Origin: Escherichia coli
Lineage (GTDB): Bacteria; Pseudomonadota; Gammaproteobacteria; Enterobacterales; Enterobacteriaceae
DNA: 64,000 bases
Direction: 5' to 3' (one strand)
NCBI RefSeq assembly: GCF_003334355.1
Contig: NZ_QOWP01000007.1
This document shows, piece after piece, positions 30,116 through 33,100 of the stretch. The notes under the pieces were generated by a model that worked only from the letters and a program-made list of their open reading frames with translations, was not told the origin of the DNA and ran no database searches. The position numbers and the translations under genes are program-made. How positions within the stretch are numbered: the first letter of the stretch is position 1; the number at the start of each line of letters is the position of its first letter.

Positions 30116-30139
30116 GGGTATACGGATTTAATGGTTGAT
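30116..30139. repeat. Terminal inverted repeat, low-coordinate end
   Basis: GGGTATACGGATTTAATGGTTGAT; 20/24 identical to the reverse complement of the other end. Confidence 0.8.
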
Positions 30140-30173
30140 GGGGCACCTTTACCCCACCAACCTGATACCATTA

Positions 30174-31451
30174 TCAGATGGTTGATAGATCGACCCCGTA
30201 GTTGAGTTCCTCTGCGAAGTCCGGCAGTCCGTAACCGATGGTTTTCTTGTAGAACGGAGAGACCTTCGCGGTCGGGGCCTTCTTCTTGTGCTTCGTGGTG
30301 TAGAGCATTCGTGCCCGCATCACCTCGAAGGAGTAACCACGTCCTTCACGGTTCTTGTCCTTGGCCAGTCGGTTGATGGACTCCGTGTAAGCGTTGGTGA
30401 CGGGCATGTCCGTCTCGAAGTAGGTCATGATCTCTTCGCGCCAGTTGCCTACAGCCCTGACCAGATCGCTCCAGACTTCCTTCTGGCCCTTCGGGATGGT
30501 GGCTATCCACTCGTCCAGGGCGGCTTCTGCCTGGGGCCGTGTGGTAGCGTCCCAGATGCCGTAGAAACGTTCCTTGTGCTCGTAGGCGGCCAGCAGTTGT
30601 GGGAATGCGCCGGTCCAGGTCTCCATGATGAGGCGTTCCCGGTTTGAGACTTCGTGAGCGCGTTTCAGCAGGATTTTCCGGTCACCCTTGAGGGTTCGGC
30701 TCTGGGAGGGCATCAGCTCCTTCCTGAGGCCCTTGCGCACCTTCTCCAGGGCATCGTTGGCCATGCGCACCACATGGAACTTATCGACCACGATGCGGGC
30801 CTGTGGCAGCACCGCCTTGACCGCTGCTCGGTAGGGATTCCACATGTCCATGCTGACGATCTTGACCTTCTGCCGGTCTTTCATCTTCATCAGGTAGTTG
30901 GTCACCACGTCCTGACGGCGGGTGGCCAGCAGGTCGAGCAGGGTCCTCTCCTCGATGTTGGTCAGGATGCAGCGGTAGCGCTTGTTCAGGTACAACTCGT
31001 CAATGCCGAGAATGCGGGGCGTCTCGAAGCGGTGCCAGCGCCCCAGGAATTCGGCGCGGGCGTTGAAAATGTCGCGTACCGTCTTCTCGTCCAGGCCCGT
31101 GGTATCAGCCACGTAGGCGTAGGGGTGATTGAAGGCTTCCTTCTCCACGTACTCATGCAACCGCAGCGTCATGCGGAAGCCGTCCACCATCTCCGGTAGC
31201 TGGGGCCTGAAGGTGGTCTTGCAGGCCCGGCAGGTGTACCGGCGACGAACTACCCAGAGGGTGACCCGCTTGCCGTGGATGGGCAGGTCACGATAGGGAA
31301 CATCACGCTTGCCGAACCGCACGAACTCACCCTGCACGCCGCACCCCTCGCAGGCTACTGGTGTAGGAGCTTCAAGCCGAAAATGTATGTCTTCATTCTG
31401 CTCATCAGAATCCACCAACTGGTACCCAGGAAGGCTTAACGAATTAATCAT
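30174..31451 (-). CDS. ISL3-family DDE transposase
   Basis: 425 aa; N-terminal CxxC...CxxC zinc finger (CEGCG...CRAC), LGIDE, SMDMWNPY and NAYTESINRLAKDKNREGRGY motifs typical of ISL3 transposases. Confidence 0.9.
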   Translation of the reverse strand: MINSLSLPGYQLVDSDEQNEDIHFRLEAPTPVACEGCGVQGEFVRFGKRDVPYRDLPIHGKRVTLWVVRRRYTCRACKTTFRPQLPEMVDGFRMTLRLHEYVEKEAFNHPYAYVADTTGLDEKTVRDIFNARAEFLGRWHRFETPRILGIDELYLNKRYRCILTNIEERTLLDLLATRRQDVVTNYLMKMKDRQKVKIVSMDMWNPYRAAVKAVLPQARIVVDKFHVVRMANDALEKVRKGLRKELMPSQSRTLKGDRKILLKRAHEVSNRERLIMETWTGAFPQLLAAYEHKERFYGIWDATTRPQAEAALDEWIATIPKGQKEVWSDLVRAVGNWREEIMTYFETDMPVTNAYTESINRLAKDKNREGRGYSFEVMRARMLYTTKHKKKAPTAKVSPFYKKTIGYGLPDFAEELNYGVDLSTI

Positions 31452-31463
31452 CTCCCGCCTTGA

Positions 31464-32498
31464 TCAGAAAAACAGGTAGGTGGCGTAACCGGCAATCATC
31501 GCCATAGCAAAAATGACTGCTAAAAACGCCGCTAAAAGCTTCAGCGTGAACAAAGAGCGCAACAGAATGAGCTCAGGCAGGCTGGCTCCGGCACTGCCGA
31601 TGATCAACGCTAGCACCGTCCCGGCACCCACGCCTTTGGCCATCAGAGCCGCTGCCAGAGGTATGACGGCTTCAGCGCGAATATACAACGGCACGCCGAT
31701 GACAGCGGCAACTGGAATGGCAAAGGGATTATCTGGGCCTGCATACTGCGCCAATAAGTCAGTGGGCATGAAACCATAGATCACGCTGCCAATCGCAATA
31801 CCGATGAGCAGGTAAGGCAACACATCGATAAAGTCCGACCAAGCTTCCCGCCACACACCACTGTACTTCCCTTCTTTCTTAACCGTGACAGTGGGTTGAC
31901 TGTCACAGCATTCGCTAGACGTAGAGACTGTTGTCTTCCTATCAGCCCCGCAAGAAGCCGTCTTCGGAGTGGTGTCGCAGCTGTTGGTGCCGCAACTCGA
32001 TGCGGTCGATGTAGCACTGCACGGGCTTGCTGATGAACTACATCCACTGCTCTCTTGTGTCGCCGTCCGGCGCACATAACGCTCGAAGCCAAGCGTGTGA
32101 AGCAGCCATCCGGCACCTACCGCGACCACCAAAGCGGTGAGCACATAGATAGCAGTAAGTGTCCATCCAAACGTGGCAACCAGCAGGCCGACGACGATAG
32201 GATTCAGCAACGGAGATGAGAAAAGAAACACCATCGTCGGCCCAAAACCGGCCCGTGCCCGAATCAACCCTTTCAACATGGGGATAGTCGAGCAACTACA
32301 GAAGGGCGTTATAGCTCCTAAACCAGCAGCAAGAAAATAGCCTCGCTTCCCACTGGAAGTCAGTAACGCTTCCACCTTGGATGGTGGGATGTGACGTTGA
32401 AGAACTCCGACCAGCAAGCTAATGCCAATGAATAAAACCGATAGCTCGATAGCGAGAAAGGCGAACATGCCTAGAGCGTCTTGGAGTTGAGGTGACAT
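31464..32498 (-). CDS. Permease of the DUF318/ArsP-like family (putative organoarsenical or metalloid efflux permease)
   Basis: 344 aa, two hydrophobic halves joined by a Cys/Ser/Thr-rich linker; TPFCSCS motif in the first half; AGGAG SD; stop 12 bp upstream of the transposase ATG. Confidence 0.7.
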   Translation of the reverse strand: MSPQLQDALGMFAFLAIELSVLFIGISLLVGVLQRHIPPSKVEALLTSSGKRGYFLAAGLGAITPFCSCSTIPMLKGLIRARAGFGPTMVFLFSSPLLNPIVVGLLVATFGWTLTAIYVLTALVVAVGAGWLLHTLGFERYVRRTATQESSGCSSSASPCSATSTASSCGTNSCDTTPKTASCGADRKTTVSTSSECCDSQPTVTVKKEGKYSGVWREAWSDFIDVLPYLLIGIAIGSVIYGFMPTDLLAQYAGPDNPFAIPVAAVIGVPLYIRAEAVIPLAAALMAKGVGAGTVLALIIGSAGASLPELILLRSLFTLKLLAAFLAVIFAMAMIAGYATYLFF

Positions 32499-32541
32499 TC
32501 AATATTACTCCTATATTTCTAGTTTTATCGAAATGATGTAC

Positions 32542-32579
32542 GCAGTCTACTTGCGTTTATCCGACCTGTCAACTATAAT
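32542..32579. promoter_or_regulatory. Divergent overlapping promoters of the regulator and the permease-transposase unit
   Basis: Plus strand TTGCGT-17 bp-TATAAT (32551-32579); minus strand TTGACA (forward 32565-32570) -17 bp- TAGACT (forward 32542-32547); inverted repeat TTTCTAG/CTAGAAA flanks the region. Confidence 0.4.
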
Positions 32580-32609
32580 TCTAGAAACATCGAATTATTG
32601 GGGCGTGCT

Positions 32610-32924
32610 ATGGATCACGAAAAGGTTGCAGCCAGCTTAGCTGAGCTAGGGAATAGTCACCGACTGTCCGTGTTCCGCTTTCTGGTCAAAGCTGGCCATG
32701 ATGGGGCTTCGGTCGGAGATATCCAGAAGGGGCTGGGTATTCCTGCTTCGACGCTATCACATCACCTTGCGCGCATGGCCAAGGTAGGGCTGATCCGGCA
32801 GGAGAAACATAGCCGCACGATTGTCTGTATACCCGAGTATGGGCACCTAGAGAATTTGATCGGTTTCTTACAAGAGGAATGTTGTGCAGGTGTCCGGATT
32901 GCGCATGAACCAGAACCGCTTTGA
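32610..32924 (+). CDS. ArsR/SmtB-family metalloregulator
   Basis: 104 aa from MDHEKVAASLAELGNSHRLSVFRFL...; winged HTH; no ELCVCDL motif but C-terminal Cys73 and vicinal Cys91-Cys92. Confidence 0.8.
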   Translation: MDHEKVAASLAELGNSHRLSVFRFLVKAGHDGASVGDIQKGLGIPASTLSHHLARMAKVGLIRQEKHSRTIVCIPEYGHLENLIGFLQEECCAGVRIAHEPEPL

Positions 32925-33076
32925 CGCTTGCCCAGCTCTCGCTGTCCTCCCTAGTCAGCATCGCTATGAAGACTCAGGCGAAGGTGGAAACAGAAAATTG
33001 GCAGTAGAGTAGGCTGAAGAGGATCAATCAGATAATCCGCTGAGAAAGATTTTCTTCTTTACATCTTTGGCATTTT

Positions 33077-33100
33077 ATCAACCAGAAATTCCGGATACCC
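33077..33100. repeat. Terminal inverted repeat, high-coordinate end
   Basis: Reverse complement is GGGTATCCGGAATTTCTGGTTGAT. Confidence 0.8.

What the first reader, a model, noticed from the sequence alone, without database searches (positions are those of the whole stretch)
30116..33100. Compositional signature of foreign origin for the inserted element
By eye the transposase and permease genes are markedly GC-richer than the flanking selO and have high-GC third positions (for example the run GGCCTTCTTCTTGTGCTTCGTGGTGTAGAGCATTCGTGCCCGCATCACCTCG); long spurious antisense ORFs (30288-30647, 30654-31199) are a typical symptom. This suggests recent acquisition from a higher-GC donor such as a pseudomonad-like proteobacterium.
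Basis: seen in the sequence. Interest (0 to 1): 0.35.

Follow-up and report, generated by a model that had tools for sequence, protein, structure and literature searches.

The report
Known insertion sequence ISPst2 in selO
The 2,985-base insert that splits the E. coli selO gene is the already described mobile element ISPst2. Only its transposase gene is unusually GC-rich, so the "foreign composition" signal is real but covers less than half of the element and adds nothing new.

Summary
Window 30116-33100 is an intact copy of ISPst2, an ISL3-family insertion sequence. It is 2,985 bp long, has the published 24-bp inverted repeats and an 8-bp target duplication (CAAATAAA), and carries tnpA plus two passenger genes, an ArsP-type permease and an ArsR regulator.

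The compositional observation is half right. The transposase has GC 0.589 and GC3 0.786, above every host gene (z = +4 to +5), and all twelve GC-richest 500-nt windows of the 64 kb lie inside it. The permease (GC3 0.571) and arsR (GC3 0.524) fall within the host range. They stand out only through poorly fitting synonymous codon choice.

The element is a compositional chimera. GC3 jumps from about 0.4 to about 0.82 near tnpA codon 33. That is exactly where 93% nucleotide identity to ISPpu12 of Pseudomonas putida plasmids ends.

Recent acquisition is shown by other evidence. None of 5,426 complete E. coli genomes has this junction, and 5,422 have the empty site. Removing the element restores a 478-aa SelO. 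Copies at least 99.5% identical sit on conjugative plasmids of many genera.

Pseudomonad ancestry fits the transposase module only. The immediate donor was probably an enterobacterial plasmid. Already known; low interest.

The parts
30108..30115 (.). Left copy of the 8-bp target-site duplication, CAAATAAA (selO sequence)
   Evidence: The identical octamer is at 33101-33108. Deleting the element plus one copy restores an uninterrupted 478-aa SelO ORF.
30116..30139 (+). Terminal inverted repeat GGGTATACGGATTTAATGGTTGAT (the published 'IRR' of ISPst2; identical to the ISPpu12 repeat next to the tnpA 3' end)
   Evidence: (0 matches expected by chance). The sequence equals the repeat printed in PMC6305408 Table 3 and in PMC7643977.
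30116..31355 (-). High-GC 'transposase module': the IR plus tnpA codons 33-425. GC 0.596, GC3 0.82. Shared with ISPpu12.
   Evidence: 93.4% nucleotide identity to ISPpu12 of pGRT1 over exactly these 1,240 nt, with no similarity beyond. In-frame GC3 steps from 0.50 to 0.78-0.95 here. Codon-usage score is Pseudomonas-like.
30174..31451 (-). tnpA, ISL3-family DDE transposase, 425 aa, intact
   Evidence: NCBIfam NF033550 scores 303.8 bits against a cutoff of 180. 92% amino-acid identity to ISPpu12 TnpA, with divergence concentrated in the first ~32 residues. Annotated with the same length in E. coli SC516.
30288..30647 (+). Spurious antisense ORF (119 aa) inside tnpA
   Evidence: Lies in the frame that pairs with sense third positions. 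Interrupted by a stop in the Halomonas garicola copy. Amino-acid identity to ISPpu12 is 0.883 in the antisense frame against 0.975 in the sense frame.
30654..31199 (+). Spurious antisense ORF (181 aa) inside tnpA
   Evidence: Same frame as the first antisense ORF. Has 2 stops in ISPpu12 and 1 in H. garicola. Antisense amino-acid identity is 0.819 against 0.951 in the sense frame. 60 of 77 substitutions fall at sense third positions.
31356..33100 (.). Moderate-GC 'cargo module': tnpA codons 1-32, the permease, arsR and the second IR. GC 0.512.
   Evidence: No nucleotide similarity to ISPpu12. GC3 is 0.38 (tnpA 5' end), 0.571 and 0.524. 31% of host windows are at least as GC-rich. 99.4% identical to ISPst2a, whereas the tnpA module is 94%.
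31464..32498 (-). Passenger gene: ArsP_1 / COG0701 ('yraQ') permease, 344 aa, with a Cys/Ser/Thr-rich central loop
   Evidence: Pfam PF03773, E = 1.8e-59. Below the NCBIfam equivalog cutoffs for the SO_0444 Cu/Zn efflux family (133.6 against 300) and SaoE (99 against 325). The closest named homologues are from Halomonas (93-94%), Thiohalophilus (88%), Marinobacter and Chromohalobacter.
32499..32609 (.). Divergent intergenic control region (GC 0.36). It holds a promoter-like site, TTGACA-17-TAGACT (32572-32544, minus strand), and two copies of TTCTAG-N4-ATCGAA (32517-32532 and 32579-32594).
   Evidence: (I2). An operator function for the repeats is inferred, not tested.
32610..32924 (+). Passenger gene: ArsR/SmtB-family regulator, 104 aa, with a C-terminal Cys-Cys pair
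   Evidence: NCBIfam NF033788 scores 51 bits against a cutoff of 55. Annotated as an ArsR/SmtB family transcription factor (WP_000349485.1) in the SC516 copy, which has no substitution inside arsR.
33077..33100 (-). Terminal inverted repeat GGGTATCCGGAATTTCTGGTTGAT (the published 'IRL' of ISPst2)
   Evidence: Identical to the published sequence.
33101..33108 (.). Right copy of the target-site duplication, CAAATAAA
29486..30115 (-). 3' part of the interrupted host gene selO (ydiU)
33101..33915 (-). 5' part of the interrupted host gene selO

Best explanation
The insert is an intact isoform of ISPst2, a known ISL3-family insertion sequence. It carries a transposase and two passenger genes, an ArsP-family permease and a divergently transcribed ArsR-type repressor. 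It transposed recently into the chromosomal selO gene of this E. coli, duplicating 8 bp. The most likely source is one of the conjugative enterobacterial plasmids that carry near-identical copies.

Its composition is not uniform because the element is a recombinant of two modules.
- The first module is the IR plus tnpA codons 33-425 (30116-31355). It has GC3 of about 0.82 and Pseudomonas-like codon usage, and it is shared with ISPpu12.
- The second module is tnpA codons 1-32, the permease, arsR and the other IR (31356-33100). It has GC3 of about 0.4-0.57, is not Pseudomonas-like, and its original source is unknown.

The long antisense ORFs are a by-product of the scarcity of A at tnpA third positions. 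The passenger genes probably form an ArsR-repressed efflux unit for a thiol-binding metal or metalloid. That function is inferred from family membership only.
For: Identity with ISPst2:
- The length (2,985 bp), both 24-bp inverted repeats, the 8-bp duplication and the gene content match the published descriptions (PMC6305408; PMC7643977; PMC8615141).
- The copy is 97.2% identical to the named isoform ISPst2a on Arthrobacter plasmid pA58H2.

Recent insertion:
- 0 of 5,426 complete E. coli genomes have the junction, and 5,422 have the empty site.
- Splicing the element out restores a 478-aa SelO.
- The copy differs by 2 of 2,985 nt from the E. coli SC516 copy.
- Copies at 99% identity or more occur in 99 E. 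coli records and 116 plasmids, in Escherichia, Salmonella, Klebsiella, Yersinia, Citrobacter and others. Of all 376 plasmid records with any match to the query (ISPpu12-type tnpA hits included), 278 are predicted conjugative.

Chimeric composition:
- The in-frame GC3 step lies at tnpA codons ~33-40.
- Nucleotide homology to ISPpu12 ends at 31355.
- The ISPpu12 tnpA 5' end has GC3 0.72, while the ISPst2 5' end has 0.38.
- Codon-usage likelihood scores are +0.287 for the tnpA core and -0.245 / -0.230 for the cargo genes.

Direct evidence of recombination at this boundary:
- ISPst2a and the P. bharatica copies are 99.3% identical to ISPpu12 over nt 1-1240 and 99-100% identical to the window copy from about 31319 onwards.

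Antisense ORFs are spurious.

Gene families.
Against: - I could not compare the element with the original ISPst2 sequence from P. stutzeri OX1, because ISfinder is not available here. Isoform status therefore rests on published repeat sequences, length and gene content, and on ISPst2a.
- The direction of the module exchange and the source of the cargo module are unresolved. No full-length lower-GC transposase carrying the ISPst2-type N-terminus was found among plasmids.
- The immediate donor is inferred from identity levels only.
- The substrate of the permease is untested, and the protein falls below every NCBIfam equivalog cutoff.
Confidence: 0.9

Rival explanations
1. One reading: the whole three-gene element shares one high-GC signature and came as a unit, recently and directly, from a high-GC pseudomonad-like donor.
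For: - ISPst2 was first reported in P. stutzeri.
- The P. bharatica CSV86 genome holds 24 copies.
- The tnpA core is Pseudomonas-like in codon usage and 93% identical to ISPpu12.
- Whole-element GC is 0.547 against 0.492 for the rest of the window.
Against: - The permease and arsR have host-like GC3 (z about 1.0 or less) and score as not Pseudomonas-like.
- In Pseudomonas, Halomonas and Thiohalophilus the element or its cargo is GC-poorer than the host (PMC7643977).
- The variant found in P. bharatica and other non-enterobacterial genomes differs by 6% in the tnpA module, whereas enterobacterial copies differ by 0.5% or less.
Confidence: 0.12
2. The high GC3 of tnpA is maintained because the antisense ORFs (30288-30647, 30654-31199) encode real overlapping proteins. 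On this reading it does not reflect donor composition.
For: Two long ORFs in one antisense frame are separated by a single stop. Both are open in the H. piscis copy, and the first is also open in ISPpu12.
Against: - The ORFs are interrupted by stops in ISPpu12 (2 in the second ORF) and in H. garicola (1 in each).
- Substitutions concentrate at sense third positions, 60 of 77.
- Antisense amino-acid identity is far lower than sense identity (0.82-0.88 against 0.95-0.98).
- The frame is the one expected to stay open whenever A is rare at sense third positions.
Confidence: 0.03
3. The GC3 step near tnpA codon 33 is not a recombination junction. It reflects selection for an AT-rich, weakly structured translation start region.
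For: Reduced GC at gene 5' ends is a well-known general phenomenon (established knowledge). The tnpA 5' end has GC 0.43.
Against: - Nucleotide homology to ISPpu12 drops from 93% to background at the same point, while protein homology continues.
- The ISPpu12 5' end keeps GC3 0.72.
- The ISPst2a/P. bharatica variant switches from ISPpu12-like to window-like between 31302 and 31319.
- The low-GC3 stretch spans about 33 codons and continues into the cargo genes.
Confidence: 0.05

Closest known systems
ISPst2 (ISL3 family; Pseudomonas stutzeri OX1, Bolognese et al. 1999), with its isoforms ISPst2a/b (Arthrobacter plasmids) and CLJ-ISL3 (P. aeruginosa CLJ1/CLJ3)
   Same: The length is 2,985 bp. Both 24-bp inverted repeats are identical to the published ones. 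There is an 8-bp duplication. The gene order is tnpA, COG0701/ArsP permease, divergent arsR. The cargo module is 99.4% identical to ISPst2a.
   Different: The tnpA module (30116-31355) is only 94% identical to ISPst2a and the P. bharatica copies. This is the variant that predominates in Enterobacterales (pYR1, Salmonella, E. coli, Klebsiella). Overall identity is 97.2%, still within the usual isoform range.
ISPpu12 (ISL3 family; P. putida pWW0 / pGRT1)
   Same: The IR next to the tnpA 3' end is identical. tnpA codons 33-425 are 93.4% identical in nucleotides, and the proteins are 92% identical overall. The architecture is the same: tnpA, then metal-efflux gene(s), then a divergent metal-responsive regulator, then the IR.
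   Different: The cargo is different and unrelated: lspA, a CDF transporter and cadR in ISPpu12, against the ArsP permease and arsR here. The other IR differs at several positions. ISPpu12 is 3,372 bp long. Its tnpA is compositionally uniform (5' GC3 0.72), whereas the tnpA here is chimeric (5' GC3 0.38).
ISEc89a/b (ISPst2 with lnu(G) inserted in tnpA)
   Same: Same backbone at 99.5% identity, and widespread on enterobacterial plasmids.
   Different: The window copy has no 1,112-bp lnu(G) insertion, and its tnpA is intact.

Membership tests
ISL3-family insertion sequence | Encodes an ISL3-type DDE transposase | tested here: met
   NF033550 scores 303.8 bits against a curated cutoff of 180, covering profile positions 2-369 of 370.
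ISL3-family insertion sequence | Imperfect terminal inverted repeats and an 8-bp AT-rich target duplication | tested here: met
   24-nt repeats at 30116-30139 and 33077-33100, 83% complementary, with 0 matches expected by chance. CAAATAAA lies on both sides.
ISPst2 (isoform) | Published termini GGGTATCCGGAATTTCTGGTTGAT and GGGTATACGGATTTAATGGTTGAT, and a length of 2,985 bp | tested here: met
   Exact matches. 33100 - 30116 + 1 = 2,985.
ISPst2 (isoform) | Two passenger genes: a COG0701 permease and an ArsR regulator | tested here: met
   described.
ISPst2 (isoform) | More than 95% nucleotide identity to the reference element (the ISfinder convention, recalled from memory) | tested here: inconclusive
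   97.2% identity to ISPst2a of pA58H2. The tnpA module on its own is 94%.
Horizontally acquired DNA by compositional criteria | GC and GC3 outside the host gene distribution | tested here: inconclusive
   Met for tnpA (GC3 z = +4.0 and +5.2). Not met for the permease (z = 0.75 and 0.99) or arsR (z = 0.03 and 0.06).
Horizontally acquired DNA by compositional criteria | Codon usage atypical for the host | tested here: met
   Mean synonymous log-likelihood under host usage gives z = -2.6 for the permease, -1.9 for arsR and -1.0 for tnpA. Karlin codon-bias distance for tnpA is 0.621, z = +2.5. A CAI-like index referenced to the translation genes in the window puts the permease below 28 of 29 host CDS, arsR below 29 of 29 and tnpA below 22 of 29. 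True CAI with the Sharp-Li reference set could not be computed.
Horizontally acquired DNA (independent of composition) | Presence/absence polymorphism at the site among conspecific genomes | tested here: met
   The occupied junction is in 0 of 5,426 genomes and the empty site is in 5,422.
ArsP / PF03773 permease family | Full-length match to the ArsP_1 profile | tested here: met
   E = 1.8e-59, covering residues 5-340 and profile positions 2-292 of 294.
SO_0444 Cu/Zn efflux or SaoE equivalogs | Score above the curated NCBIfam cutoff | tested here: not met
   133.6 against 300 and 99.3 against 325. Substrate specificity cannot be assigned.
ArsR/SmtB metalloregulators | Winged-helix HTH_metalloreg domain | tested here: inconclusive
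   NF033788 scores 51 bits, just under the cutoff of 55. RefSeq names WP_000349485.1, the product annotated in the SC516 copy (no substitution within arsR relative to the window), an ArsR/SmtB family transcription factor. Precomputed Pfam hits HTH_20 and HTH_5 are on record for the homologous genes in L003 and L004.

The most novel reading that the evidence does not exclude
ISPst2 is itself a recombinant. An ISPpu12-type, Pseudomonas-like segment (tnpA codons 33-425 plus the IR) is joined near tnpA codon 33 to a lower-GC segment made of the tnpA 5' end, the cargo genes and the other IR. This subgroup of ISL3 elements repeatedly exchanges modules by homologous recombination in or next to tnpA. 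The cargo modules all pair a regulator with metal efflux: ArsR + ArsP, CadR + CDF + LspA, and RcnR/FrmR-like + DmeF + MntP. The result would be a family of transposase chassis with interchangeable metal-homeostasis cargo. I did not find this stated in the papers I read, but it may already be noted in ISfinder, TnPedia or the ISPpu12 and ISPst9 literature, which I could not check.
Probability: 0.6. Interest if true: 0.3.

Novelty: already known. Interest (0 to 1): 0.12.

Why it matters
This finding matters little by itself. ISPst2 is a described element, and its spread in Enterobacterales, including its role as the carrier of lnu(G), is published. A GC-based argument that it is foreign has already been made in P. 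aeruginosa.

The useful lessons are about method.
- A whole-element GC value (0.547) hides a two-part mosaic.
- The same element looks GC-rich in E. coli and GC-poor in Pseudomonas or Halomonas, so its composition cannot name the immediate donor or date the transfer.
- Insertion polymorphism and identity to plasmid copies can do both.

For this strain, the practical consequence is a knocked-out selO (a protein adenylyltransferase) and one more active-looking copy of an IS known to disrupt genes in other hosts.

Tried and rejected
1. I looked for a native chromosomal source of the cargo.
- The closest named permease homologues are in Halomonas (93-94%) and Thiohalophilus (88%).
- All three loci turned out to be ISPst2-like elements or remnants, with 95% identity over the whole element in Halomonas and an 84% remnant with a truncated tnpA in Thiohalophilus. 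In those hosts the cargo is GC-poorer than its surroundings, so they are not the source.
- A Geobacteraceae MAG has a 77% permease homologue with no ISL3 transposase downstream of it. The contig is too short to judge.

2. I looked for a 'parent' ISL3 transposase that carries the ISPst2-type N-terminus on a different body, using tblastn of the first 48 aa against plasmids. Only ISPst2 (95% or more) and ISPpu12-type (54%) hits came back.

3. P. saliphila (L011) looked like a possible alternative junction near the breakpoint. It is simply a truncated ISPst2.

4. True CAI with the Sharp-Li E. coli reference set could not be computed because the Biopython table is absent. I used a CAI-like index referenced to the translation genes in the window and a synonymous-codon likelihood instead.

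5. My greedy ORF set contained at least one spurious ORF, 42541-43152, which is antisense to infC. Repeating the statistics with 36 annotated CDS gave the same result.

6. I considered and rejected the antisense ORFs as real genes.
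Full report
**What is there**

The window is an E. coli chromosomal segment with the gene order ydiK ... ppsA, ppsR, aroH, hemP, selO, ydiV, nlpC, btuDEC, pheTS ... thrS. I established this by comparison with an annotated genome.

selO is split by a 2,985-bp insert at 30116-33100.
- The insert has 24-nt imperfect inverted repeats at 30116-30139 and 33077-33100. A search for the repeat pattern finds only these two sites in the window, with 0 expected by chance.
- It is flanked by a direct 8-bp duplication, CAAATAAA, at 30108-30115 and 33101-33108.
- It encodes three genes:
  - a 425-aa ISL3-family transposase at 30174-31451 on the minus strand (NF033550, 303.8 bits against a cutoff of 180);
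  - a 344-aa ArsP_1/PF03773 permease at 31464-32498 on the minus strand (E = 1.8e-59);
  - a divergent 104-aa ArsR/SmtB-type regulator at 32610-32924 on the plus strand.

**Identity**

The length, both repeat sequences, the 8-bp duplication and the gene content match the published ISPst2 exactly.
- ISPst2a and ISPst2b are listed in Table 3 of PMC6305408.
- CLJ-ISL3, 'an isoform of ISPst2', is described in PMC7643977.
- ISPst2 is described as tnpA-yraQ-arsR in PMC8615141.

The window copy is 97.2% identical to ISPst2a on Arthrobacter plasmid pA58H2. It differs at 2 of 2,985 positions from a chromosomal copy in E. coli SC516. The feature is therefore a known element.

**Checking the observation**

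I used two host reference sets: 53 ORFs called in the window and 36 CDS annotated in the same region of another E. coli.

| Gene or region | GC | GC3 | GC3 z (53 ORFs / 36 CDS) |
|---|---|---|---|
| tnpA | 0.589 | 0.786 | +4.0 / +5.2 |
| permease | 0.538 | 0.571 | +0.75 / +0.99 |
| arsR | 0.530 | 0.524 | +0.03 / +0.06 |
| intact selO | 0.525 | 0.528 | not computed |

- The tnpA GC3 is above every host gene (host maxima 0.631 and 0.619).
- The twelve GC-richest 500-nt windows of the whole 64 kb all lie in tnpA. No host 1,240-nt window reaches the GC of 30116-31355 (0.596 against a maximum of 0.563).
- The cargo half, 31356-33100, has GC 0.512, and 31% of host windows of the same size equal or exceed it.

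The statement that the transposase and the permease are both markedly GC-richer than selO is therefore true only for the transposase.

Codon choice does mark the cargo as atypical.
- Synonymous-codon log-likelihood under host usage gives z = -2.6 for the permease and -1.9 for arsR.
- A CAI-like index referenced to the translation genes in the window puts the permease below 28 of 29 host genes and arsR below all 29.

**Antisense ORFs**

Both ORFs exist. They lie in the plus-strand frame whose first codon position pairs with the sense third position.
- That frame has 5 stops in tnpA, against 18 and 19 in the other two frames. A occupies only 10.6% of tnpA third positions.
- The ORFs are broken by stops in ISPpu12 and in the Halomonas garicola copy.
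- 60 of 77 substitutions against ISPpu12 fall at sense third positions.
- Amino-acid identity is 0.95-0.98 in the sense frame and 0.82-0.88 in the antisense frame.

**The element is a compositional chimera**

In-frame GC3 along tnpA is 0.50 in codons 1-40 and 0.78-0.95 afterwards. Codons 1-32 have GC3 0.38.

The step coincides with a homology boundary.
- Element positions 1-1240 (window 30116-31355: the IR plus tnpA codons 33-425) are 93.4% identical to ISPpu12 of P. putida plasmid pGRT1 and many other plasmids. Nothing beyond is similar at the nucleotide level.
- The proteins stay homologous through the N-terminus.
- ISPpu12 has the same layout with unrelated cargo: tnpA, lspA, a CDF transporter and a divergent cadR.
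- Its own tnpA 5' end keeps GC3 0.72. ISPst2 is therefore the element whose tnpA is mosaic.

A codon-usage likelihood ratio supports the split. I built it from 126 ORFs flanking the ISPst2 copies in Pseudomonas bharatica and from 52 E. coli ORFs of the window.

| Sequence | Score per codon |
|---|---|
| tnpA codons 34-425 | +0.287 |
| Pseudomonas genes | +0.216 +/- 0.099 |
| E. coli genes | -0.304 +/- 0.111 |
| tnpA codons 2-33 | -0.458 |
| permease | -0.245 |
| arsR | -0.230 |

**Direct evidence for recombination at that boundary**

A scan of one genome per species found ISPst2-like cargo in 17 genomes.
- These include Pseudomonas (24 copies in P. bharatica CSV86), Stutzerimonas, Acinetobacter, Shewanella, Nitrincola, Salinicola and Spongiibacter.
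- They also include the alphaproteobacteria Novosphingobium, Sphingopyxis, Paracoccus and Celeribacter.

The full-length P. bharatica, Acinetobacter, Novosphingobium and Shewanella copies are the ISPst2a variant (Novosphingobium and A. gyllenbergii 99.9-100% to the P. bharatica copy, which is 99.97% to ISPst2a; identical profile for Shewanella).
- This variant is 99-100% identical to the window copy from about 31319 onwards.
- Over positions 1-1240 it is 99.3% identical to ISPpu12 and only about 94% identical to the window copy.
- The switch lies between 31302 and 31319.

The Halomonas and Nitrincola copies show further patchwork identity within tnpA.

A Methylophaga plasmid carries an ISPpu12-type tnpA joined to a third cargo: an RcnR/FrmR-like repressor, DmeF and MntP. 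Module exchange therefore recurs in this ISL3 subgroup.

**Where the cargo comes from**

The source is unresolved.
- The closest named permease homologues are from Halomonas (93-94%), Thiohalophilus (88%), Marinobacter and Chromohalobacter (about 80%).
- The Halomonas and Thiohalophilus loci are themselves ISPst2 elements or remnants.
- In those hosts the cargo (GC3 0.50-0.58) is much GC-poorer than the surrounding genes (GC3 0.75-0.86).
- No plasmid carries the ISPst2-type transposase N-terminus on a different transposase.

**Recency and donor**

- The occupied junction occurs in none of 5,426 complete E. coli genomes. The reconstructed empty site occurs in 5,422.
- Excision in silico restores a 478-aa SelO.
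- The element at 99% identity or more is in 99 E. coli records, and 83 genomes hold a copy covering at least 80% of it. Hits are about equally chromosomal and plasmid-borne.
- It is also in 116 plasmids of many genera. Of all 376 plasmid records with any match to the element, 278 are predicted conjugative.

These facts show that the insertion is recent. Composition does not. They also point to an enterobacterial plasmid as the proximate donor.

The same element was argued to be foreign in P. aeruginosa because its GC (54.8%) is lower than the genome's (66.6%) (PMC7643977). The window copy has GC 0.547. An element that looks GC-rich in one host and GC-poor in another cannot identify its last donor by GC.

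**Likely function (inferred)**

Transposition is by the ISL3 DDE transposase acting on the two inverted repeats.

The passenger pair resembles an ArsR-repressed efflux unit.
- The 111-bp divergent intergenic region (GC 0.36) has a promoter-like site facing the permease gene, TTGACA-17-TAGACT.
- Two copies of TTCTAG-N4-ATCGAA lie at 32517-32532 and 32579-32594. They could be operators.
- The permease has the FCSCS motif and a Cys-rich loop. The regulator has a C-terminal Cys-Cys pair. From general knowledge of ArsP and ArsR proteins, these fit sensing and export of a thiol-binding metal or metalloid.
- The permease is below every NCBIfam equivalog cutoff, and nothing here tests the substrate.

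**Verdict**

It does not have a single signature, and composition does not identify the donor.
- The element is already known. The only mildly new point is the documented module boundary near tnpA codon 33 and the cargo swapping among ISPpu12-group elements.

Noticed in passing
Plasmid hits (e.g. NZ_LT795503.1, NZ_CP037911.1); no counterpart in the window: Dozens of plasmid copies of this element carry a 1,112-bp insertion with lnu(G) (lincosamide resistance) in tnpA. This is the published ISEc89a/b derivative of ISPst2 (PMC8615141). The window copy lacks it.
   Followed up: partly
L008 4001-7952 (Methylophaga pinxianii plasmid pWTT2411): An ISPpu12-type tnpA (93.8% nucleotide identity over the whole gene, frameshifted) is joined to a third, unrelated cargo: an RcnR/FrmR-like repressor, the DmeF CDF transporter and MntP. 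The element ends in an IR-like GGGTAACCGGAAAATCTGGTTGAT. This suggests interchangeable metal-homeostasis cargo in this ISL3 subgroup.
   Followed up: partly
L020-L043 (Pseudomonas bharatica CSV86) and L050 (Arthrobacter pA58H2): P. bharatica CSV86 holds 24 copies of the ISPst2a variant, which indicates a burst of transposition. Essentially the same variant (99.97% identical) sits on a plasmid of a Gram-positive Arthrobacter from Antarctica.
   Followed up: partly
window 55021-55815, 45765-47664 and 33978-34691: Low-GC host stretches deviate more from the window mean than the cargo half of the element does. GC is 0.34 at 55021-55815 (500-nt windows fall to 0.31), 0.37-0.40 at 45765-47664 (the espL1/arpB region, by comparison), and 0.42 for ydiV.
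   Followed up: no
window 32517-32532 and 32579-32594: Two copies of the imperfect palindrome TTCTAG-N4-ATCGAA lie in the permease-arsR intergenic region and bracket a promoter-like site (TTGACA-17-TAGACT, 32572-32544, minus strand). They are candidate ArsR operators.
   Followed up: no
L003 5398-8382, L004 1119-4013 and L006 5406-7294: Halomonas piscis and H. garicola carry whole ISPst2-like elements at 95% identity. Thiohalophilus carries an 84% remnant consisting of the IR, arsR, the permease and the first ~250 nt of tnpA. The greatest sequence diversity of the element seen here is in halophilic gammaproteobacteria, not in Enterobacterales.
   Followed up: partly
window 42541-43152 (+): The mechanical ORF list gives a 203-aa ORF here. 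It is antisense to infC, which starts with a rare start codon and so is missed by an ATG/GTG/TTG ORF caller. This is another example of a spurious antisense ORF, this time in a host gene.
   Followed up: partly
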